Of a stretch of DNA of 64,000 bases, positions 1 to 15,237 are shown piece after piece. Under the pieces are notes generated by a model, which saw only the letters and a list, made by a program, of their open reading frames with translations, was not told the origin of the DNA and made no database searches. This DNA is from Arenicellales bacterium (GTDB taxonomy: Bacteria; Pseudomonadota; Gammaproteobacteria; Arenicellales; Poriferihabitantaceae): contig CBDDOO010000001.1 in the NCBI GenBank assembly GCA_965231905.1, positions 324,900-388,899 of the forward strand. Reading direction: 5' to 3'. Positions within the stretch are counted from its first letter, which is position 1. Each line of letters starts with the position of its first letter. Both the position numbers and the translations under genes were made by a program.

Positions 1-963
1 TGAGGCCATGCTCCCTTCAAAAACAAAATCCTCCGGGAATGTTTGCAGGCAAGCAGCCTCTCGAATACTGATTGCCCTGTCCTGCTCCGGGTGGCCAAAG
101 CGTCCATTCGAGTAACTCGTGCACCGAGTGGTTAGTCCCGATGCGGGAGTGTCCCAGGACATCCGGCCATAAACATCGGTATATCCAGAGAAATTCCTGT
201 GGCACTCAAGTCTGAGATGATCTGGCCAATCCCGGTTACCCCCGCCTTCCGGCGTTGCCTTGACACGTTCGACATTCCGCGCAGAGAGATTCGCCGCCCT
301 ATGGTTGGGTATCTGGTCGTGTTCTTCCCCCGCTTGTATTGGTGGAAGATGAGAGATCCAGTCACGCACAGTACCATATCGTTCGTTCGGCGTTCCCGGC
401 CCATGAGTCTCATCGGGCAGATGGATTGTACCGTGCCGGCTCGCTACCAATACGAGCCGACGGCGACTTTGTGGTATTCCGTACCTCGCCAGTTTGATGG
501 GGCGATAGTCCACTTCGTATTCTGCCGCTTCCAATCGACCCAGAAAATCACCGAAAGGTTGACTATCGCTATCCAGTTTCTGCAGCCCCGGAACATTTTC
601 CACGAACACGAGATCTGGTCGGCAACCCTCTACCAGATTTGCAAAGTAGGTAAGTAACGGCACACGTTCGTCCTGATCCAGGTTCGGTCGCTTGGTATTT
701 TGTCTGGAAAATGGCTGACATGGCGCACACCCACTGAAAAGCACTGGTTGTAATCGTTCCGATTCTACCCGAAGCCGTACGGCTTCAACGCTTACGTTAC
801 GAATATCTGCAAACTCGAAGTGTGTGTCGGAGAAGTTGGCCTGGAAGCTCGCTCTGGCTTCTGCATCGTGATCCAGCGCGAACGAAATCTCCATACCGGC
901 ATCCTGAAAGCCACAACTGGCGCCGCCACAGCCGGCGAAGAAGTCATATACCTGAACGGTCAT
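1..963 (-). CDS. DNA (cytosine-5)-methyltransferase, partial (3' end runs off window)
   Basis: Absent from the ORF track because there is no stop in the window. My reverse-strand translation from ATG at 963 gives MTVQVYDFFAGCGGASCGF (motif I), GCAPCQPFS (motif IV catalytic PCQ), FVENVPG (motif VI) and PQSRRRLVLV (motif VIII). Confidence 0.85.
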   Translation of the reverse strand, partial: MTVQVYDFFAGCGGASCGFQDAGMEISFALDHDAEARASFQANFSDTHFEFADIRNVSVEAVRLRVESERLQPVLFSGCAPCQPFSRQNTKRPNLDQDERVPLLTYFANLVEGCRPDLVFVENVPGLQKLDSDSQPFGDFLGRLEAAEYEVDYRPIKLARYGIPQSRRRLVLVASRHGTIHLPDETHGPGTPNERYGTVRDWISHLPPIQAGEEHDQIPNHRAANLSARNVERVKATPEGGGNRDWPDHLRLECHRNFSGYTDVYGRMSWDTPASGLTTRCTSYSNGRFGHPEQDRAISIREAACLQTFPEDFVFEGSMAS

Positions 964-990
964 TGGTTCATCATGGCAGGTCATCTCCCT

Positions 991-1425
991 TCATTCGTAA
1001 AGCAAGGTATATAACTCGAAAGCCTTGATCTGTTTTCTCACTCCCTCGAACGTGTCGCGTCCAGTGACTCTTGAAATCGGTTGCGTGGGTTCGCGCTGCT
1101 TGAAAATAACGTATTGCATCATTCTTCTACCCAGAAATTGTAACCCCAAATGAGTTTTTTGGTCGTCCTTCCAGACGGCGCGCAGATTTCCATTATCCAT
1201 CGATACCAAGTTACCTTTCCGCAAGCGCGGATCCAGTTCGATGAAACTCTGGAAGTCAGCCTCGGAGGTGAGGTTCAATGCATAACCGTCATTTGCCGCA
1301 ATATGGCGTAGATCAGAAATTCTCACTGAATACGCCTGAAATTTAGTCCGCACCGGCTCATTCAAAGCGAATGCGGCGCTGGAATGATCGAAGGTGAAGA
1401 ATTTTGCAGCATTTCGAGTATCCAC
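991..1425 (-). CDS. hypothetical protein (144 aa), directly upstream of and co-oriented with the C5 methyltransferase
   Basis: Intact ORF ending 27 nt before the methyltransferase ATG. No motif recognised. Confidence 0.5.
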   Translation of the reverse strand: MDTRNAAKFFTFDHSSAAFALNEPVRTKFQAYSVRISDLRHIAANDGYALNLTSEADFQSFIELDPRLRKGNLVSMDNGNLRAVWKDDQKTHLGLQFLGRRMMQYVIFKQREPTQPISRVTGRDTFEGVRKQIKAFELYTLLYE

Positions 1426-1601
1426 AATTTACGTTGAACGCGATTGATTGTCATGTTCAGGAATTGGGTGACAATTACTTCATGCGCCCGCATCATACCA
1501 CGTATCTGTGTCCGACTTCGCTACGACCAATTCCGATACGCTTCATGTCAACACAGCAATTCCCGCCAGCTACAGATGATGAGGGCTATCAAGGGATTTG
1601 A

Positions 1602-3216
1602 GGGAGTTTAAAGAAAGTTTATCGTAAACTTTTGTCCTGAAGGGATGTATTCTACGGTTCCAATTTCAAGAAACAGAGGAGAGGTCATGAACCATCCAGT
1701 CAGTCGCAAGGATTTATCCGCTCACGGGTTATACCAGGTTGTTCGCACGTCTTTTGAGTCATTTCCCGATTCCAGGCAGGTTCGCAAGCTGTCTTTGCCG
1801 GATGTTCTGATGTCCGGTCTGGCGATGTTCAGTCTGAAGTATCCTTCCTTGTTGCAGTTTGACCGTTGTCGTCATGCACAGGCGGTTCGTCATAACTTGC
1901 GGACTTTGTTCGGGATTCGACAGGCGCCGTGCGACACGTATATGCGGGAGCGTTTGGATGAAGTGGAGCCGCATGCGTTTGAGCCGGTTTACAAGCGGTT
2001 GTTTGCGCGGTTGCAGAGGGGCAAGGGACTGGAAGGTTTTGCGGGGCCGGGCGGTCATTATGTGTTGTCGGTAGACGGGACCGGGGTCTTTTCTTCCCGG
2101 CAGGTTCGCTGTCGCTGCTGTTGTGAGAAACGCCACCGGAACGGCGAGGTTACGTATTACCATCAGTTATTGGCTGCGGTATTGGTGCACCCGGATTGTC
2201 GGGAAGTGATTCCGTTGATGCCCGAGGCCATTGGAAAGCGGGACGGTGCGACGAAGAATGACTGTGAACGGGCTGCATCGAAGCGGTTGCTGAGACGGGT
2301 TCGTCGCAATCATCCACACTTGAGGCTGCTGGTGGTGGAAGATGCTTTGGCCGCGAACGGGCCGCATATCCGGCTGCTGGAGTCGCTGGACATGCGCTTT
2401 ATGCTCGGAGTGAAGCCGGGGTCTCATGCGGAGTTATTCCGTTGGGTGGAGGCCACGACAACCACGGGCGCCCTCGAAGTGTCGGGAGAGGACGGTGTCC
2501 GTTTCCGTTTCCGGTTTCTCCATGCAGTCCCGTTAAATGACGCGCACTTTGATCTGGAAGTGAACTTCCTGTCCTGTCAGGAGATTCGCCCCGATGGCCG
2601 GGAACGACGCTTCTGTTGGGTTACGGACCTGCCGATTGACGAATCCAACGTCTATGAACTGATGCGGGTCGGTCGCGCCCGTTGGCGCATCGAGAACGAA
2701 ACCTTCAATACGCTGAAGAACCAGGGCTACGGCCTGGAACACAACTTTGGTCACGGCAATCAATACCTGTCTACTGTACTGACGCATTTGATGATGCTGG
2801 CCTTTCTGATTGACCAGATACAACTGCGTTGCTGTGCGGTGTTCAACCGGGCGCTGATGAGCCGCCACAGTCGCAGCGCCTTGTGGCGGAAGATGCGAGC
2901 CCTGTTTGATGAGTATCTGATCAGCAGTTGGGAAAGCCTGTTTCATGGAATCGCTTTCGGATACTCTCCCCCGTCCCTCCCCGACCCCCCTTGAGCTCTT
3001 CCGTGACCCGGTGTGTTCCGGGGGGATTTTCAGCGTACACAAAGCCCGTCCTTTTTGTTGCGGCAACCCGGCAGCCCGGCTCTGCTCGCCCTGAAGAAAC
3101 AGCCCGCAGAAAAATCCAACTCTCAACCGTCATCCCTCTATCCATTATTCCCTGGCGGGAATTGCTGATGTCAACACTATCTTAGTGACCACATTGTTAA
3201 GTTCCGATAAACTCCC
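1602..3216 (+). mobile_element. IS element (IS4-superfamily DDE transposase); boundaries approximate
   Basis: Single transposase ORF. Candidate imperfect terminal inverted repeats: GGGAGTTTA...AGTTTATCGTAAACTT (1602-1630) versus the reverse complement of GTTCCGATAAACTCCC (3201-3216). No clear target-site duplication found. Confidence 0.5.
1687..2994 (+). CDS. DDE transposase, IS4 superfamily
   Basis: C-terminal GRARWRIENETFNTLKNQGY matches the IS4-type Y-R-E-K signature. GGAGAGG RBS lies before the ATG at 1687; the ORF track start at 1645 is also possible. Confidence 0.85.
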   Translation: MNHPVSRKDLSAHGLYQVVRTSFESFPDSRQVRKLSLPDVLMSGLAMFSLKYPSLLQFDRCRHAQAVRHNLRTLFGIRQAPCDTYMRERLDEVEPHAFEPVYKRLFARLQRGKGLEGFAGPGGHYVLSVDGTGVFSSRQVRCRCCCEKRHRNGEVTYYHQLLAAVLVHPDCREVIPLMPEAIGKRDGATKNDCERAASKRLLRRVRRNHPHLRLLVVEDALAANGPHIRLLESLDMRFMLGVKPGSHAELFRWVEATTTTGALEVSGEDGVRFRFRFLHAVPLNDAHFDLEVNFLSCQEIRPDGRERRFCWVTDLPIDESNVYELMRVGRARWRIENETFNTLKNQGYGLEHNFGHGNQYLSTVLTHLMMLAFLIDQIQLRCCAVFNRALMSRHSRSALWRKMRALFDEYLISSWESLFHGIAFGYSPPSLPDPP

Positions 3217-3236
3217 AGATAGATGGAGTTCACCGG

Positions 3237-5111
3237 ATGTCAGAAAATCACAATCAAGGTTCCCAAGAAGGCGGAGGAGATCAGGACATGGCAATAGTGA
3301 CTCAAGAGGATTTTGTGTCTGCGGACCTCGAAGCGCCTATTCGTGGTAGCAACAAGGTTGATTGCTGGAACTTGGCGGCCCTGTACGAAACAGCAGCCAG
3401 AGAACACAAACAAGCTGGCAACGAAACCGCCGCCCGCGTCTATTGTCTTATCGCTGATGTCTCCCACATGCACTTCAACCCCGAAGACCGGGCGGAACCC
3501 TATGGTCCTAATTTTGTTTTGGGCGGAAGGCGAAGTATGATCCCCTGCGACTTGCGAGGAGGTCAATCGGACGTATTCGCAGCTATTGCGTCTAATATTG
3601 ATAATCCAGGACTCAGGGCACGGCTTTCCGATGTGGCTTGGCACAACAATCGTGGGCTTTTTGCCATGGCACAATTGGCGATCAACGCCTATTGCGATAC
3701 TGTGCAAGCGGTTCTCGACGGCACAGCCGAATTTTTTTCCGACGAGCGAACCGCCAGTAGCCGAAGTGGTACTGAGATGCTGCACCGCGCTTGTCAAATC
3801 GCCCATGCAACAGGCTGGAAGAAATCTGAAAAAATACGCCTCAAGTCATTAATCACCACCGTTGTCCAGGATGCATTCAATCGAAAAGATCACCGTGGAT
3901 TCCTGAATACAGCCGAACTCAGCCTGCAACTCCGCATCGGCGAATCGGACGCTATAGCTCGAAACGCCGAGACGCTGATTACAACCAACAGCCCGGATGC
4001 TTTTATTTCCCGTGAACTATGGCAACTCGCCGCTCTTGCCTACCGACAGTCGGGAAACGATACTGAGCTCAACCGCTGCCTTATATCCGCAGCGGAATGT
4101 CTCGTTGCACTGGCAGATGCTGAAGGCGGGCGCGGAATGGTCGCAGCAGGTCACTTGAGTGATGCCATCAAAGAACTTAGGCGAATACCAGATACTCAGA
4201 AAAGGCGACAACAACTTGAGCGCAAGCTCCGCGACGCGCAAGCCTCAATACATGACGAAATGGGCGTGATATCGGCGCCGGTTGACCGGACTGATCTTGT
4301 CAAAGAAACCCGTAAAAGTGTGAGTGGCTTGAGTCTGGCACAGGCACTAGCGGTTTTTGCTGATCTCGCTTCGCCCCCGGCCCCGGCAACGTTACGAGAC
4401 GAAGCGAGGAAGCAGTACGAGAAAAGTCCTTTCTTGAGTCTTATTCCGAAGTCGATAGTCGATGACGAAGGCAAGGTAGTGTCCAGGTCTCCCGCTCTCA
4501 CTGGCAACGAAGCAGAAGACCAATCAGCAATCCACCATAGCATTGCCAAAGATGAAGGCTTTCGCAGGCATATTGTCGTTCGCGGGCAGATTGAACCGGC
4601 AAGGCAGTTGATCCATTTCGAACACACGCTCGGACAGCGTGATTTCCTCCCTCTCGTGACTATGAGCCCGTTCGTTCCTGAAGATCGTGTGGTTCTTTTC
4701 AGTTTGGCGTTTATGCGATTTTTCGGCGGAGATTTTATGTCCGCACTTCACATTCTCGTTCCGCAGTTGGAGAATTCATTGCGTCATATCCTGAAACAGA
4801 CTGGCAAGGAACCCTCCTCAATCCAGAGTGACATGACGCAGGAAAACCGGAGTTTGTCGGTACTGCTCACGAAGGATCGAGAGTCACTCGAAAAAGTATT
4901 CGGCTCCGCTATTATCTATGAGATTGAGAACCTGTTTGATTTTCGAGGCGGCCCCGCACTCAGGCATCAACTGGCGCACGGGTTGGTCTCAGGAGAGGCT
5001 TGCTACGGGACAGATGCGATTTATGCGTGCTGGTTCATTTTTCGGCTGTGTTGTCTGCCTTTATTTAGTCATTGGGAACAACTGACCAAGTGGATGGACG
5101 GAAACTATTAG
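3237..5111 (+). CDS. alpha-helical protein with C-terminal HEPN-like (Rx4H) / DUF4209-like domain
   Basis: 624-aa ORF with GGAG 9 nt upstream of the ATG. C-terminus LFDFRGGPALRHQLAHGLV contains R576-x4-H581 (nt 4962-4979), as in HEPN/Abi_2-type RNxxAH motifs. A second LENSLRHILK helix lies upstream. Confidence 0.75.
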   Translation: MSENHNQGSQEGGGDQDMAIVTQEDFVSADLEAPIRGSNKVDCWNLAALYETAAREHKQAGNETAARVYCLIADVSHMHFNPEDRAEPYGPNFVLGGRRSMIPCDLRGGQSDVFAAIASNIDNPGLRARLSDVAWHNNRGLFAMAQLAINAYCDTVQAVLDGTAEFFSDERTASSRSGTEMLHRACQIAHATGWKKSEKIRLKSLITTVVQDAFNRKDHRGFLNTAELSLQLRIGESDAIARNAETLITTNSPDAFISRELWQLAALAYRQSGNDTELNRCLISAAECLVALADAEGGRGMVAAGHLSDAIKELRRIPDTQKRRQQLERKLRDAQASIHDEMGVISAPVDRTDLVKETRKSVSGLSLAQALAVFADLASPPAPATLRDEARKQYEKSPFLSLIPKSIVDDEGKVVSRSPALTGNEAEDQSAIHHSIAKDEGFRRHIVVRGQIEPARQLIHFEHTLGQRDFLPLVTMSPFVPEDRVVLFSLAFMRFFGGDFMSALHILVPQLENSLRHILKQTGKEPSSIQSDMTQENRSLSVLLTKDRESLEKVFGSAIIYEIENLFDFRGGPALRHQLAHGLVSGEACYGTDAIYACWFIFRLCCLPLFSHWEQLTKWMDGNY

Positions 5112-5218
5112 ACTCGCCCAGTTTCTCGACATGAGAAAACACTCGGACTCAGTGAGGCGGATACCCTCCCTGCCCACCACAAAGCGAAATCGTGTATCAT
5201 CCCTGCCGGAGTCCAGAT

Positions 5219-7366
5219 ATGTATACGATAAATGACATCAATCCGGTCGAAATAAAACAGCCATTTCGACCACGGGCGAGGGTGCTACAACTTCTCGGTG
5301 ACGAATTGATAGGCAGCGCCCGATTGGCGGTCTTTGAACTGGTCAAAAATGCGTATGATGCGGACGCAAATGAAGCTGTCGTTCGCCTTGATCTTGCCTC
5401 GACACAAGAGCCAATGATCATTATTAACGACGATGGCGAGGGCATGACTCTCGATGTACTCCGATCAGTCTGGCTGGCGCCGGGGGACGATCATCGTCAG
5501 AAACAACGCCTATCGGGCCGGAGAACCGCCAAGCATCAGCGTCTTCCACTTGGAGAGAAGGGGTTAGGCAGATTCGCTGTCCACAAACTCGGGAATCACA
5601 TCACCCTCGTGACGCGTGCTCAGAATGCTGACGAATGTGTGGTGGAAATTGACTGGAACGAGCTGATCGACAAACCCTATCTGGATGAAGCGCCCGTGAC
5701 GATACGGGTTCGTTACCCAGAAGTGTTTACCGGAGAACAGACGGGAACCCGTATCGAAATCCGTCAATTACGAATAGCCGACTGGTCGCGTGGTGAAGTA
5801 CGGCGCTTGCACAACCAGATCACCTCCATTTGCTCTCCGTTCGAGGAACCAGGGGATTTCGATGCCAGGTTGCTCGTCCCCGGACGCGAGGACTGGATTG
5901 ATGACCTGCCAGATATTTCCGAAATTCTTGATCGAGCGATCTGGAAGTTTTCCTTTCGAGTTTCGGATGGCGACTTCAACTGGACTTACGAATTCCGCCA
6001 GATTCCCGGTTTCAATCTCGACGGCAGAACCGTCAATAAGTCTGGCGACCGGCTGAGGCTTCCGTCACGCTCGGGTGACGACCGGATGGAAAAGAAAGTT
6101 GTGGCCGATAAAGAGATATTTGAAGGTATCGGTCCTGTCACCGGAGAATTTTATGTTTACGACCGGGGTCAGGAAGTGCGTCGGAGAATGTCCCAGATAC
6201 GACTGCTGGAGTCTTACCTTGATGAAACGGGAGGAGTACGAGTCTACCGGGATGGCATTAGAGTGTATAACTATGGTGAGTCTGGAGACGATTGGCTTGG
6301 CCTTGATCTGCGTCGTGTGAATGTGCCGACACGCCGTATCAGCCGCAATATCATTTTAGGAGCGATACATCTGTCCCTGCGAGAATCCACTGGTCTTGTC
6401 GAGAAAACGAATCGGGAAGGTTTCGTAGAAAACGCGCCCTGCCTCCAGTTGCGCCGAATCGTCCTCGGCGCCCTTGCTGCCCTTGAGGCGGAACGGCAAT
6501 TTGATAAAGAGCGTATCAGACAATTGACCGAAAAACCGGACGATCCAGTGAGCGCTAAAATCGAAAAACCGATACAGGCGCTGCGCCGCGAGCTTGAACG
6601 ACAGGGGGTGGAAGAAAAGTTCGAGAACTTTGTTGTAAAGATCGAACAGGACTACCAGAGCATGCAAGCGACACTGCTCACAGCCGGCATGTCCGGTTTG
6701 AATCTGGCAGTAGTATTTCATGAGGTAGAACGGGGTGTGCGGGCACTCCACCAAGTCATTTCCGAAGGTGCGGACATGGAGAGCGCTATTCTCCAAGCGC
6801 GTGATCTCATGCGCCTTCTCGACGGGTTCGCCACATTGCTCCGGCGAGACAGCAAACAGCAACACAATGGGAGGAAATTGCTGGATGCCGCTCGAAAGTT
6901 CAATATATTGCGCTTCCGACATCATCGCATCCAACTCGTATGTCCGTCTCTGAAAAGCGCTGACGAACTGTTCTACTCCCGGTTTGCATTCGGTTTGGTT
7001 GTGGGAGCATTGAACAATCTTGTGGATAACGCTCTATACTGGCTCCGGGTAAAATGGCCGGATATTCCAGAGCCAAACGATTCTACCGAACGAAAGCTTT
7101 ACATCGGCGTATCGGACGATTTCGATGCTGGACCGGCCATCATCGTCGCGGACAACGGTACGGGTTTTCAGGGAGACGCGCCTGAAAACCTCGTGCGGCC
7201 ATTCTTCACTCGCAAGCCCGAAGGGATGGGGCTTGGTCTTTATTACGCAAATCTGGCGATGGAATTGAATGGAGGACAGCTTGCTTTTCCACAGCCGGGA
7301 GAGGTCGAACTTCCCGAAGAATTCGACGGCGCAGTCGTCGCCCTGATATTCAAGGAGGTGAAATGA
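5219..7366 (+). CDS. dual GHKL ATPase: N-terminal MORC/HATPase_c_3-like module plus C-terminal histidine-kinase-like DHp/CA module
   Basis: N-terminal motifs: ELVKNAYDADA (N box), INDDGEGM (G1), GEKGLGRFAVHKLG (G2). Centre: VVFHEVERG (His codon 6719-6721, H-box-like). C-terminal motifs: NLVDNALYW, VADNGTGF, GMGLGLYYA. ATG at 5219 follows GGAG; GTG at 5192 is an alternative start. Confidence 0.85.
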   Translation: MYTINDINPVEIKQPFRPRARVLQLLGDELIGSARLAVFELVKNAYDADANEAVVRLDLASTQEPMIIINDDGEGMTLDVLRSVWLAPGDDHRQKQRLSGRRTAKHQRLPLGEKGLGRFAVHKLGNHITLVTRAQNADECVVEIDWNELIDKPYLDEAPVTIRVRYPEVFTGEQTGTRIEIRQLRIADWSRGEVRRLHNQITSICSPFEEPGDFDARLLVPGREDWIDDLPDISEILDRAIWKFSFRVSDGDFNWTYEFRQIPGFNLDGRTVNKSGDRLRLPSRSGDDRMEKKVVADKEIFEGIGPVTGEFYVYDRGQEVRRRMSQIRLLESYLDETGGVRVYRDGIRVYNYGESGDDWLGLDLRRVNVPTRRISRNIILGAIHLSLRESTGLVEKTNREGFVENAPCLQLRRIVLGALAALEAERQFDKERIRQLTEKPDDPVSAKIEKPIQALRRELERQGVEEKFENFVVKIEQDYQSMQATLLTAGMSGLNLAVVFHEVERGVRALHQVISEGADMESAILQARDLMRLLDGFATLLRRDSKQQHNGRKLLDAARKFNILRFRHHRIQLVCPSLKSADELFYSRFAFGLVVGALNNLVDNALYWLRVKWPDIPEPNDSTERKLYIGVSDDFDAGPAIIVADNGTGFQGDAPENLVRPFFTRKPEGMGLGLYYANLAMELNGGQLAFPQPGEVELPEEFDGAVVALIFKEVK

Positions 7367-8658
7367 GGCTGCCAGCACCGCGTATTATCGCGATTGACGA
7401 CGAACCGAAACACCTCAAAGGATTGGCGCAGGGACTCAACCGATATGGCACGGCCTGTCTGCCCATTCACTTCACAGGTGAAGCCACTATTCCTTCATGT
7501 TCTCATGTACGTGTAATCTTCGCCGACCTTCACCTCAGTGGCGGCCTTAAAGACCATGCACAAGACTTCAGCATAATCGGCGGCCTGATTGAAGATATCC
7601 AACCATCCGGTCCTTATTTCATCGTCCTCTGGACCATGTATCCAGAGCAAGCGTCTGCATTGTATGCTTTCCTTGTGGATCGTCTCCAGAGTGTGGCTAA
7701 ACCGTTCACGGTGCAAGCACTCAACAAGAACGATCATCTTGACACACAGGGTGATGTAAAAAACCCTGAGGCGCTTGTCGAAGCTATAGGACGGGTCGTT
7801 GTAGAACAGCCACAGATCGGGGCGCTATTCAATTGGGAGGAGCGGGTACTGGGCGCTACCGCGGATACAGTATCATCCATTACCAAGATGGCTGATTCGG
7901 CTGCAAAAGACGCAAGCCCCGTTAAAGAAATCGACAGGTTGCTCAAGAATATTGCCATTGCCGCTGTCGGTAAAGATCATGTCGAAGAAGATCGGTTTCA
8001 AGCTGTCAATGAAGCGCTTCTACCCATCCTCGCTGACCGCATTGCATCCATGCGTTCACGGGAGATTGACCGTGAATTATGGAAAGCCGCGTTTGGCGGA
8101 TCAAAGACCAGTTCCAAGTTGAGATCTGATGAAGCTGCCAAGCTTAACCGTCTGCTTCACATTGCACATCCGACAGACATAAGTAGCTGGATGGAACGTG
8201 GCTCTGTCATTACTTTGCCAAAGAGAGCCTCAGGCGACAAGTTCAAGCCATGGTTCGGTCTTGAACAAGAGATGGCGGCCAACAAATCCTTCGGTTGTCA
8301 GGATTTCGACTCAAACGATGCTCGATTCCGTTGGGTACTCGTACAATCGCAAGCGGCTTGTGACTACGCTCAAATACGGCCGGGGCCATTGACTTTCTAT
8401 CTCGGGCTGTGCTTGCCCGAACCAAGAGCTCGTAAAGGGAGCCTCCCTTCCGCCCTTTGGGCCAGCCCATGTTTCTACTTTGATGACGAGCCCTTCCTGC
8501 TGCATGTGAACGCAGGCTTTCAAATGCCGTTGCCACGAACGTCGCGAGGAATAGAAAAGCCTCTTTTTCGTCTGCGCGAACAGCTTCTCAACGATATGAT
8601 TTATCGACTCCATAGCCACGGCGCCCGGCCTGGGGTTATTTCATTTCGCAAATCTTAG
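7363..8658 (+). CDS. response-regulator receiver (REC) domain protein with ~300-aa C-terminal domain of unknown function
   Basis: REC landmarks: RIIAIDDEP, VIFADLHLSG (Asp 7525-7527), FIVLWT, VAKPF (Lys 7698-7700). ATGA overlap with the upstream gene, and AAGGAGG RBS at 7352-7358. Confidence 0.8.
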   Translation: MRLPAPRIIAIDDEPKHLKGLAQGLNRYGTACLPIHFTGEATIPSCSHVRVIFADLHLSGGLKDHAQDFSIIGGLIEDIQPSGPYFIVLWTMYPEQASALYAFLVDRLQSVAKPFTVQALNKNDHLDTQGDVKNPEALVEAIGRVVVEQPQIGALFNWEERVLGATADTVSSITKMADSAAKDASPVKEIDRLLKNIAIAAVGKDHVEEDRFQAVNEALLPILADRIASMRSREIDRELWKAAFGGSKTSSKLRSDEAAKLNRLLHIAHPTDISSWMERGSVITLPKRASGDKFKPWFGLEQEMAANKSFGCQDFDSNDARFRWVLVQSQAACDYAQIRPGPLTFYLGLCLPEPRARKGSLPSALWASPCFYFDDEPFLLHVNAGFQMPLPRTSRGIEKPLFRLREQLLNDMIYRLHSHGARPGVISFRKS

Positions 8659-8669
8659 GCAAGTGATTC

Positions 8670-9623
8670 TTAAGGAGAATCAATCAGGGATTTCACCACA
8701 GCCGTCATCACCGGCGGGCAGACCCCGTTACCGAGTAGCCGGACGCGGTCGCGTCGAGTACCGATCAGCAACTTGAAACTCTCATCGAAACCCATGGCTC
8801 GCTTGAGCTCGGGAACTTGGAGCATCCGCATCCTTGATTCCCTCCCATCATGCTGGACAAGAGCGAAACGATCCACAGTTGTAATGGTGCGTAAAGGCCG
8901 ATCAAGGGGTTGCCAGCCGCCACTTCCATCATTCCCATAGTACACCAGAAGAAAACTGGCTTCCTCTCCGAGTGCCTGAAAGCCGCGTTGCGCCCGTTCA
9001 AGCGTCGCAGTGGCCCGACGCTCATCGAACAAGGCAGATGTTTTCCAGACACCTACTGAATCCAGTATTGACTTTACCGTTTTACGCTGACAGGGGCGCT
9101 TGTGGATAACCGGGTTCGGATTACGCGCGCGGTCGCCGACGAGAAAGAGACGGCGCCGACGTTGCGGCACACCGAAATCGGCTGAATCCAACACGTGTTC
9201 ATGCAACCGATAACCGAGATTGCCAAGTTCATGCTTGAGTTCTCCATAGCGCGACCATGGTCGCATGTGGATCACATTTTCCAACACCAGCCACCGGGGA
9301 CGCAGTGCTTGAGCATAGCTGACAACCAACATGGCAGTGGCACGGCTGGCTTCGTCACGCGGCGCCCCGCCCTTGGCACAGGTATGGTTAGTGCATTCGG
9401 GAGAAGCAAGCAGAAGATCAATCTCGCCGATTTCCGTTTTCAAGGAACCGAGGGGAACGCTTTCCAAACGTTCGGCGATGACCCGCGCCTCTGGAAAATT
9501 GGTAGAAAACGTCTTGGCTGCGATGGCGCACATATCAACACCGACAACGATTTCGGCTCCGGCATCTCGCGCTCCGGCGCTACCGCCGCCTGCACCGCAG
9601 AACATGTCAAATGCCCGTATCAT
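8670..9623 (-). CDS. DNA (cytosine-5)-methyltransferase
   Basis: AFDMFCGAGGGS (motif I), ASPECTNHTCAKGG (motif IV variant with PEC), LENV (motif VI), PQRRRRLFLVG (motif VIII). Lies 37 nt downstream of hsdS on the same strand. Confidence 0.9.
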   Translation of the reverse strand: MIRAFDMFCGAGGGSAGARDAGAEIVVGVDMCAIAAKTFSTNFPEARVIAERLESVPLGSLKTEIGEIDLLLASPECTNHTCAKGGAPRDEASRATAMLVVSYAQALRPRWLVLENVIHMRPWSRYGELKHELGNLGYRLHEHVLDSADFGVPQRRRRLFLVGDRARNPNPVIHKRPCQRKTVKSILDSVGVWKTSALFDERRATATLERAQRGFQALGEEASFLLVYYGNDGSGGWQPLDRPLRTITTVDRFALVQHDGRESRMRMLQVPELKRAMGFDESFKLLIGTRRDRVRLLGNGVCPPVMTAVVKSLIDSP

Positions 9624-9660
9624 CTTGTGGTGATGATTGTTTTGCTGTTTATGATGTCAG

Positions 9661-10818
9661 TCATGCGTCTGCTTCCAGAAGGCGTGACATCAGGGAAGCG
9701 GTCAACGACGCGGAGGTTTTATGACCGGAGTCAGCGAGTTTGGTTGTTGTCTGTGCAGATTGTATGATTTCTGCAAATCGCTTTTGTGCATCAAAAGTCG
9801 GTACTGGAACCGGCATCGACAAGAGTGCTTTCATGTCGGTTCTGGGCATCCGTGAGCCTGTTACCGAGGCCATAACATAGTCAACGGTTTCTTCTCGCCG
9901 GAGCAAGTTTGCAAGAAAGTCACGATTTACCCCGTCTCGAGGTAGCAATGGGATAAGCTCGGTCGAACACCTGCCAGGGAAATCGGGCGTGGCAACTTTA
10001 TTAAGGTATGGCCTGAGCTTTCCATAAAGAACATGGCGTTCGTCAAAAGAGAATGCCGCGCTCTTTCGGGCGCCGACACGAGAATCTGAATCGAAGTTAA
10101 AGGCTCCGATACCTGAGTCAACGTTTTCGACCCCGACGAAACGGAGTTGGGGTGCGATCGGATCGTTTGGTTTGATCCCGCGACGGTCCATATCGCAAAG
10201 GTCACCAAGCGTTTTTATCTCCCACCCCATCGGATTCTCGACCGGGTCTCCGAACATTTTGACGAACAGCGCCGGAATGAATTCCTGCAACCGTTCCTGT
10301 GCCTGTTTTTGCAGCCGTTCAATCTTCGCCGCCCGGTTCAGGATATTGACGATGCGGCGTTGCTCGTCGAGTGGTGGGAGAGGAATACAGACCTGCTTAA
10401 GAGTGGACTTTGGGAGTTCTCTAAACGTCGTACCTCCGGCGAGTTGAATCAGGCGTTCACGCTGGTCGCGAAGCCAAAATGCGAGATACTCCGGCACAAT
10501 GCGTTCGCTACAAATGAGGTTGGCGAAACCCTGGTTGGTCGCTATGGGCTGAGTCGCGATTGCCGTGTAGCCAATGGTGGCTCTACTCGTCATCAATACG
10601 GTTCCAGCAGGCACTAAACGGGCACTGCTTTCACGCAACGCAACTTCAGTGATTGATTCCTTTGTTTGATCGAGAAAGAGAGTATCAAGCACTGTCACAT
10701 CCGTCGGTGTGGCCCACGGTATGGTGCCATTGAAATAAGCAGCAATACTACGCCGGGGAGTTCCCCCGCCAACGATGGTACAAACTTCTGCGAGAGGCAC
10801 TCGTACGCACGCAGTCAT
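9661..10818 (-). CDS. hsdS: type I restriction-modification specificity subunit
   Basis: Two-TRD layout with conserved helical spacers (PLPPLDEQRRIVNILN ... VPVPTFDAQKRFAEII). ATGA overlap with hsdM. Confidence 0.9.
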   Translation of the reverse strand: MTACVRVPLAEVCTIVGGGTPRRSIAAYFNGTIPWATPTDVTVLDTLFLDQTKESITEVALRESSARLVPAGTVLMTSRATIGYTAIATQPIATNQGFANLICSERIVPEYLAFWLRDQRERLIQLAGGTTFRELPKSTLKQVCIPLPPLDEQRRIVNILNRAAKIERLQKQAQERLQEFIPALFVKMFGDPVENPMGWEIKTLGDLCDMDRRGIKPNDPIAPQLRFVGVENVDSGIGAFNFDSDSRVGARKSAAFSFDERHVLYGKLRPYLNKVATPDFPGRCSTELIPLLPRDGVNRDFLANLLRREETVDYVMASVTGSRMPRTDMKALLSMPVPVPTFDAQKRFAEIIQSAQTTTKLADSGHKTSASLTASLMSRLLEADA

Positions 10819-12446
10819 TCCGCCACCACCCCTCGCACCGCCCCCGCCAACTCATCAATCTCTCCCAATATCTCCGTCTCAATTTCCCTCAATTCCTCCA
10901 GAATCTCCAACGGGTCGCGATGCTTCACTTTAGCCCGGCTTTGTGGCCGGTGCCGGTTGGCGCTGAGATTGAAGTCCACAGCGCGAATTTCATCAGCCTC
11001 GGCGAACCACCACTTCTCCGTCCAGTTGTCCTTCAGATCCCGGTCGCGCCACGCCGCCCACCGCTCCTCCCGGTCCTGGAACGCATCAATCAGACCGGGC
11101 AGGTCATCCTCGTCAATCGGCGTATCATGGTTGGCGTCCAGCTTGAATCCGTCCTGGTCGGCATGGAGAAACATCACCCGTTCTGTTGTCCCACCCTTGC
11201 GAAATACCAGCACGGAAGTCTTGACCCCGGAATAGGGATTGAACACGCCACCGGGCAACGACAGTACGGCCTCCACCGTATTGTTCTCGATCAGTTTGCG
11301 CCGCAATTCCTGGTGCGCTCCAGTAGACCCGAACAATACACCCTCCGGCACGACCACACCGCAACGTCCTCCTTCCCGCAAATGGTTGACCATGTATTGC
11401 AGGAACAGAAGTTCCGTCTGCGCTGTGCGTCCGACCTTCACATCCTCGACAATGCGATCCTTGTCCAGGCGCCCGGAAAAGGGCGGGTTGGCGAGGATGA
11501 CATCAAATCCCTGCACTGGCAGACCCAGTTCCGCCTTTGCGGCCCGGTCCAGGGAACGGGTCAGTGCATCGCGGCGCAAGATGCGTACCCGGTCCAGACC
11601 GCGCAGGGTCAGATTCATCGTGGCGAGGCGCACCATCTGCGGGTCTACATCGTTGCCGAAGAACGTGGCTTCCTGCAACTGCCGCACCGCGTTCCGGCTC
11701 AACGTGTCGCCGAGTCCGCGTACAACTGTCTTGCCCTCGGCTTCCACCTCTTCCATTCCGTCAGGCGACGAGTTCGCCAGCCGGATATGATCGTAGGCGC
11801 CGACCAGAAAGCCAGACGTGCCTGCCGCCGGGTCGTAAACAGTCTCGCCGATGCGGGGGTCAACCAGCCGAACCAGGGCGCGGATAATGTGGCGTGGGGT
11901 TCGGAACTGACCCAACTCCCCCGCCTGACGGATCTGGCGTAATACATGCTCGAACAGATCGCCCTTGGTATCCGCGTCCACCTGGTCCAGATGCAGGTCG
12001 TTCAGTTGGCTGACGATCTGGGTGAGTACGGTCGGCTCATCAATCACCAGCCGGGCGCCGTCCATGAAATCGGTAACGCCGTCTGCCGCGACTTCGGCAT
12101 GGAACGCAAAGACCTCCTCGCGAACCCAGTGGACCAGTCGCTCGCCGTTCAGCGCATGCGCCCAGGACGACCATCTCAACAATTCGCGTGATACGGACTC
12201 GGCGCCTGACTCTGGAGCATTGCGCGGGTCGCGCAAGTCCCATTCTCCTTCGAAGACGCTGGCATAGGGAGCGGCTCCCGGACGCCGGGCAGCCCGCACA
12301 CGTACCGCGTCCGCCGCCTCGTACAGGTAGAAGTAGATCAGGAAGCTGAGTTGCTCGGCGTTCTGGGCCGGATTCGGGTAACCGCCGCCGAACAGGTAAT
12401 TGCGGATACGGTCGATGCCGCGCCGAAGTTCCGGGGTCATGGGCAT
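10815..12446 (-). CDS. hsdM: type I restriction-modification N6-adenine DNA methyltransferase subunit
   Basis: FRTPRHI, DPAAGTSGFL (SAM motif), ILANPPFSG (NPPF catalytic motif). Start moved to ATG 12446, 4 nt after the hsdR stop, rather than the track start 12530, which would overlap hsdR by 80 nt. Confidence 0.9.
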   Translation of the reverse strand: MPMTPELRRGIDRIRNYLFGGGYPNPAQNAEQLSFLIYFYLYEAADAVRVRAARRPGAAPYASVFEGEWDLRDPRNAPESGAESVSRELLRWSSWAHALNGERLVHWVREEVFAFHAEVAADGVTDFMDGARLVIDEPTVLTQIVSQLNDLHLDQVDADTKGDLFEHVLRQIRQAGELGQFRTPRHIIRALVRLVDPRIGETVYDPAAGTSGFLVGAYDHIRLANSSPDGMEEVEAEGKTVVRGLGDTLSRNAVRQLQEATFFGNDVDPQMVRLATMNLTLRGLDRVRILRRDALTRSLDRAAKAELGLPVQGFDVILANPPFSGRLDKDRIVEDVKVGRTAQTELLFLQYMVNHLREGGRCGVVVPEGVLFGSTGAHQELRRKLIENNTVEAVLSLPGGVFNPYSGVKTSVLVFRKGGTTERVMFLHADQDGFKLDANHDTPIDEDDLPGLIDAFQDREERWAAWRDRDLKDNWTEKWWFAEADEIRAVDFNLSANRHRPQSRAKVKHRDPLEILEELREIETEILGEIDELAGAVRGVVAE

Positions 12447-12450
12447 ACCG

Positions 12451-14601: not shown

Positions 14602-14616
14602 AAGTTGAACCGGGAA

Positions 14617-15237
14617 TCAAGGCATCGGTACTTCCGTATCGACCGGGACGCGGTAGCCTTTTTGTACGGCCGGGCGCGCGGCAATTTCGGTGTACCAGCG
14701 TTTCACGTTCAGGAAGTCGTTCATATCGACCTGTTGCCACTCGAATCGGGAGGCCCAGGGCCACAACGCGATATCGGCGATTGAGTAGTCACCGGCGACA
14801 TATTCATTTTCTTCCAGATGGTCGTCGAGTACGGCATAGAGGCGCTGGGCTTCGACCTTGTATCTTTTCTCGGCGTATTCACTGGTTCCGGGCTTGAAGT
14901 GCAGGAAGTGGTGAGCCTGCCCCAGCATCGGGCCGAAGCCGCCCATCTGGAACATCAGCCATTCCAGAATTTGCCAGCGCTTGTCTTGCGGCATCAGCAT
15001 TCTGGTTTTATCGGCCAGATAAATCAGGATCGCGCCGGATTCCATCATGCTCAAGTCGTTTTCCTCATCGACGATAGCCGGAATCTTGTTGTTCGGGCTG
15101 ATCTTCAGGAAATCTTCATCGAATTGGTCGTTCTTGCCGATGTCGATCGGGTGGACCCGGTAGGGCAGTCCGGTTTCTTCGAGCATGATGGACGCTTTGC
15201 GTCCGTTCGGGGTGCTCCAGGTGTATAGATTAATCAT
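14617..15237 (-). CDS. yfcG: Nu-class glutathione S-transferase / disulfide-bond oxidoreductase, YfcG-like
   Basis: Resembles E. coli YfcG from memory (LY..TPNG.K..LEE..L.Y....D...G.QF...FL.ISPNNKIPAIVD). Confidence 0.85.
   Translation of the reverse strand: MINLYTWSTPNGRKASIMLEETGLPYRVHPIDIGKNDQFDEDFLKISPNNKIPAIVDEENDLSMMESGAILIYLADKTRMLMPQDKRWQILEWLMFQMGGFGPMLGQAHHFLHFKPGTSEYAEKRYKVEAQRLYAVLDDHLEENEYVAGDYSIADIALWPWASRFEWQQVDMNDFLNVKRWYTEIAARPAVQKGYRVPVDTEVPMP

What the first reader, a model, noticed from the sequence alone, without database searches (positions are those of the whole stretch)
5219..7366. One polypeptide with two Bergerat-fold ATPase modules (MORC-type plus kinase CA-type)
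Two complete N/G1/G2 box sets are visible: 5336-5650 (ELVKNAYDA, DDGEGM, GEKGLGRF) and ~7012-7240 (NLVDNALYW, DNGTGF, GMGLGL). They are separated by a helical region containing FHEVERG. Classical sensor kinases have one such module, and MORC/paraMORC proteins lack a DHp/CA unit. The fusion suggests an ATP-driven DNA- or ligand-clamping sensor directly wired to phosphotransfer.
Basis: partly seen in the sequence, partly recalled or inferred. Interest (0 to 1): 0.7.

Follow-up and report, generated by a model that had tools for sequence, protein, structure and literature searches.

The report
MORC-like histidine kinase beside DNA methylase
The gene does encode one soluble protein with a MutL/MORC/Hsp90-type ATPase module fused to a complete histidine-kinase core, but this architecture was described computationally in 2021, is very widespread, and sits in a conserved cassette with a DNA methylase and a receiver-domain effector whose function has never been tested.

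Summary
ORF 5219-7366 (715 aa) has an N-terminal HATPase_c_3 module and a C-terminal HATPase_c module, both above Pfam's cut-offs. Between them lies a DHp hairpin whose His501 aligns with the phospho-accepting His of solved kinases and is present in 87 of 88 diverse relatives.

The architecture is not new. Bellieny-Rabelo et al. 2021 (PMC8011034) described HATPase_c_3 + HEF_HK + HATPase_c kinases paired with Response_reg_2 proteins next to C5 DNA methylases. However, their Pfam models (PF19191, PF19192) do not detect the window's proteins, so this is probably a divergent clade of that family.

What I add:
- The N-terminal ~430 aa fold like GHKL plus middle/transducer domain of TRAP1/Hsp90, MORC3 and MutL.
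- The next gene (7363-8658, start overlapping the kinase stop) encodes a cryptic receiver domain plus a conserved effector domain with an invariant Cys and a nearly invariant Asp and no detectable relative.
- A DNA methylase sits beside the pair in all 14 distinct genome and assembly loci inspected, and in 43 of 49 metagenome loci.
- In two phyla the effector is replaced by an MbcA-like antitoxin domain plus a RES toxin.

Most likely this is a restriction-modification-like immune cassette whose restriction arm is a His-Asp phosphorelay. That function is inferred, not shown.

The parts
5219..7366 (+). Soluble histidine-kinase-like protein (715 aa): GHL ATPase module + helical linker + DHp + CA
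   Evidence: Pfam finds HATPase_c_3 and HATPase_c. The AF2 model has pLDDT 86.9 and pTM 0.86. There is no hydrophobic segment (max KD19 1.35). Homologues are 75-92% identical at ~712 aa.
5276..5818 (+). N-terminal Bergerat-fold ATPase domain (aa ~20-200). Motif I is E40-x3-N44-x2-D47, motif II is D71xG73xG75, motif III is G112/G115/G117/R118.
   Evidence: Pfam HATPase_c_3 E 2.4e-16. E40, N44, D47, D71, G73, G75, G112, G115 and R118 are invariant and G117 is present in 87 of 88 relatives. The profile hits MutL NTD at 5e-8 and HtpG/Hsp90 NTD at ~1e-6.
5861..6418 (+). Beta-rich middle/transducer-like domain (aa ~215-400) with conserved R344, R348, Y352-G353, D358-W359-L360, R366, R399-E400-G401
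   Evidence: AF2 secondary structure. Foldseek alignments of 446-502 columns to TRAP1/Hsp90 NTD+MD, MORC3, MORC2, SMCHD1 and MutL LN40 (TMt 0.64). Conservation.
6434..6685 (+). Helical linker (aa ~406-489) between the ATPase module and the DHp
   Evidence: AF2 helices 406-437, 449-461 and 465-489.
6695..6841 (+). DHp helical hairpin (aa 493-541) with H-box FHEVERG. The phospho-acceptor candidate is His501 (codon 6719-6721).
   Evidence: The profile 'viHeiek' aligns on 'vAHEIRNPL' of ZraS and ThkA. His is present in 87 of 88 relatives and Glu in 78 of 88. AF2 helices 493-515 and 520-541.
6857..7354 (+). Kinase CA domain (aa ~547-712): N box N600/D603/N604, G1 D645xG647xG649, F box F662, G2 G669xG671xG673
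   Evidence: Pfam HATPase_c E 2.6e-13. PDB profile hits to ZraS, ThkA, LvrB, FixL, HK853, CpxA and EnvZ at 1e-20 to 1e-8. Conservation.
7363..8658 (+). Partner gene (431 aa), whose start overlaps the kinase stop (ATGA): cryptic receiver domain + helical region + conserved C-terminal effector domain
   Evidence: The 4-nt overlap is shown. 539 homologues, none with a Pfam domain. The same partner follows the kinase in L001, L002, L007, L010, L011, L013, L015 and L016, and in most metagenome loci.
7384..7806 (+). Receiver (REC) domain, aa 8-148: D12-D13, phospho-acceptor D55 (codon 7525-7527), T91, K122
   Evidence: All five residues are invariant in 28 homologues. D12 and D55 are invariant and K122 is >=90% conserved in 49 partners of 14-50% identity. 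AF2 gives a (beta-alpha)5 fold. Foldseek finds HupR, PhoB, CheY4 and CpxR receivers with prob ~1 and TMt 0.56-0.68.
8170..8655 (+). Effector domain of unknown fold family (aa ~270-431): motif VQSQAAC333D334YAQ, FR403LR405, R422-P-G424
   Evidence: pLDDT is ~90 for 280-420. C333 and G280 are invariant; D334, R422, G424 and N262 are >=90% conserved in 49 diverse partners. The motif xx[PSAQ]xC[DN]xx[NQH] occurs in 50 of 57 partner ORFs. No hit in Pfam, NCBIfam, PADLOC or PHROGs, in PDB by sequence, or in PDB or BFVD by Foldseek.
8670..9623 (-). Convergent C5 cytosine DNA methyltransferase (317 aa), the conserved third member of the cassette
   Evidence: Pfam DNA_methylase E 3.2e-36 over the full length of the model. 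Motifs FCGAGG, SPEC, ENV, QRR and GNGV are present. A methylase is adjacent in every genome or assembly locus looked at and in 43 of 49 metagenome loci.

Best explanation
The finding is one gene of a three-gene cassette:
- a DNA methyltransferase (8670-9623, minus strand);
- a soluble two-ATPase histidine kinase (5219-7366);
- a receiver-effector protein (7363-8658).

The cassette sits in a defence island next to a type I R-M system and a PDC-S39 gene.

Shown by sequence and models:
- The kinase has a MutL/MORC/Hsp90-type ATPase engine (GHKL domain with the catalytic Glu40, plus a middle/transducer domain).
- A helical linker joins this engine to a canonical DHp-CA kinase core with His501.
- The partner has a complete receiver active site (D12, D13, D55, T91, K122), no DNA-binding domain, and a conserved Cys-Asp effector domain.

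Inferred:
1. The cassette works like a restriction-modification system in which the restriction arm is a phosphorelay. The methylase marks host DNA.
2. The N-terminal ATPase module, as an ATP-dependent dimeric clamp, senses unmarked (foreign or newly unmethylated) DNA, or a related infection signal.
3. Its ATP-driven conformational change passes through the helical linker to the DHp.
4. The CA domain phosphorylates His501.
5. The phosphoryl group moves to Asp55 of the partner.
6. The phosphorylated receiver switches on the C-terminal effector, which stops the invader or the infected cell.
7. In variant loci the same kinase and receiver instead control an MbcA/ParS-like antitoxin domain and a RES-domain toxin.
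For: Architecture:
- Both GHKL modules are above Pfam cut-offs and occur in 52 of 52 diverse relatives.
- The catalytic residues of both modules are invariant or nearly so, and His501 is present in 87 of 88 relatives.
- The DHp+CA region aligns to ZraS, ThkA, LvrB, HK853, CpxA and EnvZ, with the His on the H-box His.
- The AF2 model (pLDDT 86.9) has an N-terminal 430 aa that superpose on TRAP1/Hsp90 NTD+MD, MORC3, MORC2, SMCHD1 and MutL LN40 over ~450-500 columns.

Partner:
- Its start overlaps the kinase stop.
- The receiver residues are invariant and the fold is a receiver fold.
- A partner recognisable by profile follows the kinase in 50 of 63 metagenome loci, and by eye in most of the rest.

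Methylase coupling:
- A C5 MTase is adjacent in the window, L001-L004, L007, L008, L010, L011, L013 and L015-L017, and an N6/N4 MTase in L018.
- The MTase overlaps the kinase start in L015 and L016.
- 43 of 49 metagenome loci carry an MTase, 27 directly upstream on the same strand, and 25 carry Vsr.

Toxic or immune output rather than transcription:
- No partner has an HTH.
- L003 and L004 carry receiver + Xre_MbcA_ParS_C followed by an overlapping RES toxin gene (RES Pfam E 2e-12 and 1.5e-14).

Setting:
- IS4 transposase, PDC-S39 (E 5e-129), Dcm and type I R-M lie around the pair.
- Integrases and TA genes are nearby in other loci.

Precedents:
- The N-terminus resembles the BbrUII/HgiDII restriction-enzyme N-terminus (E 1.8e-22).
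- paraMORC3/VcSduA is an experimentally proven GHKL-controlled antiphage nuclease (PMC12137116).
- Shedu type 1F proteins are receiver-nucleases encoded next to kinases (PMC10441436).
- The published neighbourhood statistics agree (PMC8011034).
Against: - No experiment exists for any member. Three searches of the paper library aimed at follow-up or experimental work on this system found none.
- DNA binding by the ATPase module is not shown. Its best structural matches are Hsp90/TRAP1 chaperones, which bind proteins.
- The adjacent methylases belong to several subfamilies (GGPPCQ in 31 of 63, ASPECT in 12 of 63, plus an N6/N4 type). A sequence-specific reader in the kinase would have to co-vary with them, yet no obvious variable specificity domain was identified.
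- The effector domain has no recognisable catalytic fold, so its activity is unknown.
- PADLOC does not list the pair as a defence system.
- The RES variant was seen in only 2 loci and in none of 80 metagenome loci.
- 6 of 49 well-flanked loci show no methylase within 5 kb.
Confidence: 0.5

Rival explanations
1. It is a regulatory two-component system that tunes the expression or activity of neighbouring R-M genes, or responds to intracellular NTP levels. This is the speculation of the 2021 paper. Under this reading it is not itself an immune effector system.
For: The authors of PMC8011034 propose this. R-M genes are enriched around the pair. The founding Pectobacterium genes were induced during infection of potato tubers.
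Against: - None of the 49 diverse partners carries a DNA-binding or other known output domain.
- Instead they share an invariant Cys and a nearly invariant Asp in an enzyme-like motif.
- Two loci replace the effector with an antitoxin-like domain plus RES toxin.
- The cassette also travels with only a solitary methylase, with or without Vsr (L015, L016, L018). In those loci there is no restriction gene to regulate.
Confidence: 0.15
2. The N-terminal module is a chaperone-like or protein/ligand sensor (Hsp90-like). It detects a phage protein or a nucleotide signal, not DNA methylation. The methylase is a hitch-hiking neighbour typical of defence islands.
For: The best Foldseek matches are TRAP1/Hsp90 NTD+MD (E 2e-11). 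The Shedu paper suggests that GHKL N-terminal domains may sense misfolded proteins. 6 of 49 loci lack a methylase.
Against: - The methylase is translationally coupled to the kinase in several clades (4- and 8-nt overlaps in L015 and L016).
- It is retained across 28-93% identity and across phyla, including a switch to an N6/N4 methylase in L018.
- Vsr, which repairs 5mC deamination, co-travels.
- MutL, MORC2/3 and SMCHD1, which act on DNA or chromatin, match almost as well as Hsp90.
Confidence: 0.15
3. It is an addiction (post-segregational killing) module. Its main role is to stabilise the mobile element carrying the methylase by killing cells that lose methylation. Defence against phages would be secondary.
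For: The cassette lies next to integrases, transposases and TA genes and on plasmids. The kinase-partner block is 94% identical to an Arenicellales MAG, whereas the flanks are 87% identical. Identities of ~70% across phyla indicate horizontal spread.
Against: This is mechanistically the same as the best explanation and differs only in selective rationale. The location inside type I R-M and defence islands fits immunity at least as well.
Confidence: 0.1
4. The kinase half is a degenerate, non-catalytic relic, and the protein acts only as a paraMORC ATPase in an R-M complex.
For: Pfam finds no HisKA domain. Distant relatives (L088, L091, L092, L093; ~28-41% identity) pair with SF2 helicase-like genes, like classical paraMORCs.
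Against: His501-Glu and the N, G1, F and G2 boxes are conserved at near 100% over 88 diverse sequences. The profile aligns end to end with active kinases. A receiver with an intact active site is always next door.
Confidence: 0.05

Closest known systems
HEF_HK / Response_reg_2 'two-component-system-like' pairs (Bellieny-Rabelo, Pretorius & Moleleki 2021, Genome Biol Evol; PMC8011034; Pfam PF19191, PF19192)
   Same: - The domain order is the same: HATPase_c_3, then a DHp-like His-Glu hairpin, then HATPase_c.
- The protein is soluble.
- The adjacent partner has a divergent receiver and no known output domain.
- A C5 methylase is usually upstream, Vsr is often downstream of the partner, and R-M genes lie around.
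- A derivation from paraMORCs is proposed (versus here).
   Different: - The Pfam models built in that work do not detect the window's kinase or partner, nor 51 of 52 kinase relatives or any of 49 partner relatives. This clade is therefore divergent or a sister group.
- The H-box is HEV/HEI rather than HEF.
- That paper did not describe the conserved Cys-Asp effector domain, the middle/transducer domain, the RES/MbcA variant or the N6/N4-methylase variant.
- It proposed regulation of R-M rather than an effector role.
paraMORC3 / VcSduA (GHKL-Shedu, type I-D Shedu), Vibrio cholerae (PMC12137116)
   Same: An N-terminal GHKL ATPase with a clamp-like middle domain is proposed to control a fused effector. 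It is an experimentally proven antiphage protein, and mutating the catalytic Glu abolishes defence.
   Different: In VcSduA the effector is a PD-(D/E)xK nuclease fused directly to the ATPase. Here the ATPase is fused to a kinase core and the effector sits on a separate receiver protein. No DUF4263 is present.
Shedu type 1F (receiver-DUF4263 nucleases encoded next to a histidine kinase; PMC10441436)
   Same: An immune effector is fused to a receiver domain and presumably activated by a neighbouring kinase.
   Different: The effector fold differs (no DUF4263/PD-(D/E)xK signature here). In the text I read, that paper does not link the kinase to a GHL module or a methylase.
Detocs defensive two-component system (Rousset et al. 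2023; cited from my own knowledge, not retrieved here)
   Same: It is a phosphorelay used for antiphage defence, with a receiver-fused enzymatic effector.
   Different: As I recall it, Detocs has three genes (kinase, buffer receiver, and a receiver-PNP effector that cleaves ATP). It has a different sensor domain and no methylase. No PADLOC defence model other than the type II REase N-terminus matched the window proteins.
BbrUII/HgiDII-family type II restriction enzymes and classical paraMORC/MORC + Dcm + Vsr systems (Iyer, Abhiman & Aravind 2008; PMC2292703)
   Same: They share a homologous N-terminal GHKL module (NCBIfam E 1.8e-22 over aa 30-196). They also partner with C5 methylases and Vsr.
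   Different: Only the N-terminal ~170 aa match (79.7 bits against a cut-off of 550). Those proteins carry nucleases or pair with helicases and have no DHp-CA or receiver partner.

Membership tests
HEF_HK / Response_reg_2 TCS-like system (PMC8011034) | N-terminal HATPase_c_3 and C-terminal HATPase_c in one soluble protein | tested here: met
   Pfam E 2.4e-16 and 2.6e-13. No hydrophobic segment.
HEF_HK / Response_reg_2 TCS-like system (PMC8011034) | Match to the Pfam HEF_HK model (PF19191) between the two ATPase domains | tested here: not met
   No hit at E <= 1 for the window protein. Only 1 of 52 relatives hits, at E 0.0084. A DHp with His-Glu is nevertheless present.
HEF_HK / Response_reg_2 TCS-like system (PMC8011034) | Adjacent gene matching Response_reg_2 (PF19192) | tested here: not met
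   No hit for the window partner or for any of 49 partners. A receiver fold and active site are nevertheless present.
HEF_HK / Response_reg_2 TCS-like system (PMC8011034) | Neighbourhood with a C5 DNA methylase, often Vsr, and R-M genes | tested here: met
   Window Dcm at 8670-9623 and type I R-M at 9661-14601. 42 of 49 metagenome loci carry a C5 MTase and 25 of 49 carry Vsr.
Classical (HisKA-type) sensor histidine kinase | H-box His on DHp helix 1, and N, G1, F and G2 boxes in the CA domain | tested here: met
   His501 aligns on the H-box His of ZraS and ThkA. The boxes are conserved. AF2 gives a two-helix hairpin followed by an alpha/beta CA domain. Pfam HisKA itself gives no hit at E <= 1.
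Classical (HisKA-type) sensor histidine kinase | Autophosphorylation on His and transfer to the Asp of a cognate receiver | not testable with these tools
   This needs biochemistry. Here there is only the conserved active sites and the overlapping gene pair.
MORC / paraMORC GHKL ATPases (Iyer et al. 2008) | GHKL domain with ATP-binding motifs and the catalytic Glu of MutL/GyrB-type ATPases | tested here: met
   E40, N44, D47, D71xGxG75, G112 and G115 are invariant and G117 is present in 87 of 88 relatives. The profile hits MutL NTD at 5e-8.
MORC / paraMORC GHKL ATPases (Iyer et al. 2008) | S5-fold/transducer (middle) domain directly after the GHKL domain | tested here: met
   This is shown on a predicted model only. 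Foldseek alignments of 446-502 columns match MutL LN40 (TMt 0.64), MORC3 (0.52), MORC2, SMCHD1 and TRAP1 NTD+MD.
MORC / paraMORC GHKL ATPases (Iyer et al. 2008) | Family-specific MORC signature motif, or assignment to one of paraMORC1-5 | not tested
   No reference alignments of those families were available. The single-sequence match to MORC3 is weak (E 0.22).
BbrUII/HgiDII family restriction enzyme (NCBIfam NF050001) | Full-length match above the curated cut-off | tested here: not met
   79.7 bits against a cut-off of 550; only aa 30-196 align.
Known anti-phage defence systems in PADLOC-DB v2 | Match of the kinase or partner to a defence-system model | tested here: not met
   The kinase matches only the REase_II N-terminus, and the partner matches nothing. 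The upstream gene 3237-5111 is PDC-S39, a separate candidate system.
RES-Xre/MbcA/ParS toxin-antitoxin (variant loci L003 and L004 only) | RES toxin gene preceded by a protein with the Xre_MbcA_ParS_C toxin-binding domain | tested here: inconclusive
   RES is clear (E 2.4e-12 and 1.5e-14). The antitoxin-domain hits (24.3 and 19.2 bits) are just below the 24.5-bit cut-off. This variant is absent from the window.

The most novel reading that the evidence does not exclude
The cassette is a new mechanistic class of restriction-modification-like immunity. A MORC/MutL-type ATP clamp reads the methylation state of DNA. It reports non-self through a His-Asp phosphorelay to a separate, swappable effector. 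That effector is either a previously unrecognised Cys-Asp enzyme domain or, in some lineages, an antitoxin-gated RES NADase. Self/non-self discrimination by DNA methylation would then be coupled to signalling and abortive infection rather than to direct DNA cleavage.
Probability: 0.4. Interest if true: 0.8.

Novelty: new member of a known kind. Interest (0 to 1): 0.5.

Why it matters
If the inferred mechanism holds, this would be a widespread system: 975 clusters at 50% identity match the kinase with E <= 1e-30. In it, DNA-methylation-based self-recognition would be read by a MORC-like ATPase and transmitted by classical two-component chemistry to a toxic effector.

That would link three well-studied areas (R-M systems, GHKL/MORC ATPases and two-component signalling). 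It would also give a tractable bacterial model for how MORC-type clamps convert nucleic-acid sensing into a signal.

The partner's Cys-Asp domain is conserved from bacteria to an archaeal-looking contig and has no detectable relative. It is an uncharacterised effector worth a structure and an activity assay.

For the scan itself, the lesson is that the 'unusual fusion' is a published, abundant architecture whose Pfam models miss a large part of the family.

Tried and rejected
- Single-sequence phmmer of the N-terminal 444 aa against PDB gave only a marginal MORC3 hit (E 0.22). The profile search and the fold search were needed.
- One call used a wrong reading frame and failed.
- A Pfam scan of 88 sequences exceeded the size limit and was repeated with 52.
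- The genome-contig scan with a single protein returned only 4 full-length loci.
- Foldseek of the full partner model found only receiver domains, against both PDB and BFVD. With no structure jobs left, I could not search the effector domain on its own.
- A profile of 49 partners against PDB found only weak receiver hits.
- The last protein search, with the partner profile, was dominated by the window's own clade. It showed no PF19192-bearing members, so it did not settle the relation to the published family.
- blastn of the kinase and partner genes against all complete E. coli genomes found nothing, so I could not obtain a bona fide HEF_HK reference sequence that way.
- Distant plasmid homologues (Burkholderia glumae, Enterobacter mori) also lack HEF_HK hits.
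- The promoter/terminator scan was uninformative: 7 promoter-like sites against 3.8 expected, and none before the kinase gene.
- Literature searches for Detocs, MADS, and RES with a receiver domain gave nothing relevant.
- I considered a caspase-like reading of the 'QAAC' motif and rejected it, because no conserved His accompanies the Cys in the deep alignment.
- I considered a functional link to the upstream PDC-S39 gene and rejected it, because PDC-S39 is absent from the 94%-identical Arenicellales locus and from all other loci.
Full report
**1. The observation**

The window has an ORF at 5192..7366 on the plus strand. Homologues start at the ATG at 5219 (MYTIN...), giving 715 aa.
- ELVKNAYDA 5336-5362
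- DDGEGM 5429-5446
- GEKGLGRF 5552-5575
- FHEVERG 6716-6736
- NLVDNALYW 7016-7042
- DNGTGF 7151-7168
- GMGLGL 7223-7240

Pfam reports HATPase_c_3 (E 2.4e-16) at the N-terminus and HATPase_c (E 2.6e-13) at the C-terminus, both well above their curated cut-offs. NCBIfam sees MutL and BbrUII/HgiDII-type similarity at the N-terminus and FixL/PrsK/AtoS-type kinase similarity at the C-terminus.

**2. Anatomy of the kinase**

I aligned 88 full-length relatives taken from a search of 1.84 billion cluster representatives. They are 28-55% identical to the window protein. Conservation in that alignment:
- N-terminal module: E40, N44, D47, D71xG73xG75, G112, G115 and R118 are invariant, and G117 is present in 87 of 88. 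E40 is the catalytic Glu of MutL/GyrB-type ATPases.
- C-terminal module: N604, D645, G671 and G673 are invariant. N600, D603, G647, G649, F662 and G669 are nearly so.
- His501 is present in 87 of 88 and is followed by Glu in 78 of 88.

A profile of 52 of these relatives was searched against PDB sequences. It aligns positions ~438-675 end to end with the DHp+CA of ZraS (1e-20), ThkA, LvrB, FixL fusions, HK853, CpxA and EnvZ. The family's 'viHeiek' falls on the 'vAHEIRNPL' H-box. The N-terminus matches MutL (5e-8) and HtpG/Hsp90/TRAP1 N-domains.

The AlphaFold2 model is confident (pLDDT 86.9, pTM 0.86). It shows:
- a GHKL domain (aa 20-200);
- a beta-rich domain (215-400);
- helices 406-489;
- a two-helix hairpin (493-515 with His501, and 520-541);
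- an alpha/beta CA domain (547-710).

Foldseek places the first ~430 residues on TRAP1/Hsp90 N+middle domains (E 2e-11), MORC3, MORC2, SMCHD1 and MutL LN40 (TMt 0.64), with 446-502 aligned columns. So the N-terminal half is a complete GHL ATPase engine with its transducer/middle domain, not just a nucleotide pocket. There is no transmembrane segment.

**3. The partner**

The next ORF (7363-8658, 431 aa) starts with an ATG that overlaps the kinase stop codon. No library recognises it.

In 28 homologues D12, D13, D55, T91 and K122 are invariant. The AF2 model has a (beta-alpha)5 fold at 8-148. Its only structural matches are receiver domains such as HupR, PhoB, CheY4 and CpxR. The N-terminal part is therefore a cryptic response-regulator receiver.

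After a poorly modelled helical region comes a confident alpha/beta domain (280-420, pLDDT ~90). Across 49 partners of 14-50% identity the invariant residues are D12, D55, G280 and C333. D334, N262, R422, G424, W90 and K122 are conserved at >=90%. The motif xx[PSAQ]xC[DN]xx[NQH], together with a C-terminal SRxG, is present in 50 of 57 partner ORFs taken from metagenome loci.

This effector domain has no detectable relative in Pfam, NCBIfam, PADLOC or PHROGs, in PDB by sequence or fold, or in BFVD.

**4. The neighbourhood**

In the window the pair is flanked as follows:
- Upstream: an IS4-like transposase (1645-2994) and a PDC-S39 candidate defence gene (3237-5111; DUF7380+DUF4209, PADLOC E 5e-129).
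- Downstream, convergent: a C5 DNA methylase (8670-9623), then hsdS, hsdM and hsdR (9661-14601).

A 93%-identical locus in an Arenicellales MAG shares the kinase-partner block (94% DNA identity), the methylase (87%) and hsdM/hsdR (86.5%). It lacks PDC-S39 and the IS, and its hsdS is different. PDC-S39 is therefore an independent neighbour.

A DNA methylase lies beside the pair in every genome or assembly locus I opened:
- L001-L004, L007, L008, L010, L011 and L013.
- More distant kinases (34-40% identity) sit in same-strand operons:
  - L015: Vsr-Dcm-kinase-partner, with the Dcm stop overlapping the kinase start.
  - L016: Dcm-kinase-partner, likewise overlapping.
  - L017: Dcm-kinase-partner-Vsr.
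  - L018: N6/N4 methylase-kinase-partner, on an archaeal-looking contig.

I then ran a census of 80 metagenome loci (28-66% identity) with locally built HMMs:
- 49 loci have at least 1.5 kb on both sides.
  - 42 of them carry a C5 methylase (43 counting N6/N4).
  - 27 have it directly upstream on the same strand.
  - 25 carry Vsr.
- 63 loci have a full-length kinase and enough downstream sequence. 50 of them have a partner that my profiles recognise.
- Most of the remaining 13 have a receiver-like partner by eye, with the same PxCD motif.
- Four of the thirteen (L088, L091, L092, L093) instead have a 1,090-1,373-aa SF2-helicase-like gene, the classical paraMORC partner.

**5. Swappable output**

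In a Spirochaetia locus (L003) and a Latescibacterota locus (L004) the kinase is 68-70% identical to the window's, and the receiver domain is ~50% identical. The Cys-Asp domain, however, is replaced by a region matching the Xre/MbcA/ParS antitoxin toxin-binding domain. Those matches are E 3e-5 and 1e-3, just under the Pfam cut-off. The next, overlapping gene is a clear RES-domain toxin (E 2e-12 and 1.5e-14). A C5 methylase is again adjacent.

This argues that the output of the phosphorelay is a toxic or immune effector and not transcription. No partner has a DNA-binding domain.

**6. What is already known**

Bellieny-Rabelo, Pretorius and Moleleki (Genome Biol Evol 2021; PMC8011034) started from a Pectobacterium gene with 'two HATPase domains (PF02518; PF13589)'. 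Their findings:
- They defined HEF_HK (PF19191) and Response_reg_2 (PF19192).
- They found 91.6% linkage of the two genes over 644 regions.
- HATPase_c_3+HEF_HK+HATPase_c was the dominant architecture (174 of 222).
- The proteins are soluble.
- C5 methylases, Vsr and R-M genes are strongly enriched nearby.
- They proposed an origin from paraMORCs.
- The work was purely computational, and they speculated that the system regulates R-M.

I found no later experimental study.

The Pfam models from that paper nevertheless do not detect the window's proteins, 51 of 52 kinase relatives, or any of 49 partners. Architecture and gene neighbourhood match the published system, but HMM-level membership is not met. 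I read this as a divergent, and very large, part of the same family that the narrow Pfam seeds miss. I could not prove this with a profile-profile comparison.

Two related precedents exist:
- The experimentally validated GHKL-Shedu protein VcSduA (paraMORC3), where the catalytic Glu of the ATPase is required for defence (PMC12137116).
- Shedu type 1F receiver-nucleases encoded next to kinases (PMC10441436).

**7. Most likely mechanism**

Shown:
- There are two intact nucleotide-binding modules of different kinds.
- A canonical His lies on a DHp.
- The overlapping partner has an intact receiver site.
- The effector domain is conserved.
- The methylase neighbour is conserved.
- The setting is a defence island or mobile element.

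Inferred:
- The methylase marks self DNA.
- The dimeric GHL clamp senses unmarked DNA, or another infection cue. It uses its ATPase cycle to switch the kinase core through the helical linker.
- His501 is phosphorylated and passes the phosphate to Asp55.
- The receiver then activates the Cys-Asp effector, or frees a RES toxin in the variant loci.

I put about 0.5 on this R-M-like phosphorelay reading. The main weaknesses are these:
- No biochemistry exists for any member.
- The best fold matches include protein-binding Hsp90s.
- The methylases are of several subfamilies, which requires a matching specificity element that I did not identify.
- The effector's activity is unknown.

The rivals are a regulator of R-M or an NTP sensor, a protein/ligand sensor with a hitch-hiking methylase, an addiction module, and a degenerate kinase. 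They are listed separately with what would refute each.

**8. Verdict**

- The claimed rarity is not: the family is published and abundant (6,593 representative clusters at E <= 1e-3 and 975 at E <= 1e-30).
- I class it as a new, divergent member of a known but experimentally uncharacterised kind.
- Interest is moderate. It rises if the methylation-gated phosphorelay and the new effector domain are confirmed.

Noticed in passing
window 3237-5111 (+), with 1645-2994 (+): The gene just upstream of the kinase is a DUF7380+DUF4209 protein matching the PADLOC candidate defence system PDC-S39 (E 5e-129) and phrog_5183. An IS4-like DDE transposase precedes it. Both are absent from the otherwise syntenic Arenicellales locus L001, so they look like a separate recent insertion.
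   Followed up: partly
window 9661-14601 (-): This is a type I R-M operon (hsdS, hsdM, hsdR). hsdM and hsdR are 86.5% identical to L001, but hsdS has no blastn match, which suggests a swapped specificity subunit. In several other loci (L007, L013) the kinase-partner-Dcm block lies between hsdR and hsdMS, as if embedded in the type I operon.
   Followed up: partly
window 5180-8650 versus flanks: The kinase-partner block is 94% identical in DNA to the Arenicellales MAG, whereas the adjacent Dcm and hsdM/hsdR are ~87% identical. The kinase is also ~70% identical in protein across four phyla (Terriglobia, Spirochaetia, Latescibacterota). This points to recent horizontal spread or unusually strong constraint.
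   Followed up: partly
window 8670-9623 (-): The C5 methylase has an unusual motif IV, 'ASPECT', instead of the canonical 'GPPCQ'. The same variant occurs in 12 of 63 methylases next to related kinases. The others have GGPPCQ or different forms, and one locus (L018) has an N6/N4 methylase.
   Followed up: partly
L003 10169-11748; L004 10112-11754: In these variant cassettes the receiver is fused to an MbcA/ParS-like antitoxin domain and is followed by an overlapping RES-domain toxin gene. This would be a toxin-antitoxin pair apparently placed under phosphorelay control. I saw it in 2 genome loci and in none of 80 metagenome loci.
   Followed up: partly
L088 4853-8125; L091 2530-6468; L092 7176-10448; L093 3962-8083: Four of the more distant relatives of the kinase (~28-41% identity by best segment) are followed by a 1,090-1,373-aa SF2 helicase-like protein instead of a receiver protein (Helicase_C confirmed for L088, L091 and L093; L092 judged from its N-terminal similarity to L088). 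This recalls the classical paraMORC-helicase R-M systems, yet these relatives keep a C-terminal kinase-like region.
   Followed up: partly
L001 11454-12206 (+): The Arenicellales locus has an extra 250-aa ORF with no Pfam match between the partner gene and the methylase. It is absent from the window.
   Followed up: no
L018 (GCA_023488905.1 contig): This cassette has an N6/N4 methylase and sits among archaeal-type genes (RadA/Rad51-like, NFACT). The system may therefore extend to archaea. I did not check the organism's identity.
   Followed up: no
window 1-10000 versus 10000-26000: G+C is 0.51-0.55 over the first ~10 kb (transposase, PDC-S39, kinase, partner, Dcm) and 0.58-0.62 beyond. This is consistent with a horizontally acquired island.
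   Followed up: no
L046 8481-9965 (+): In this locus a second, shorter GHKL-like ORF follows the partner gene. It gave a weak hit to the N-terminal part of the kinase profile (E 2e-6).
   Followed up: no
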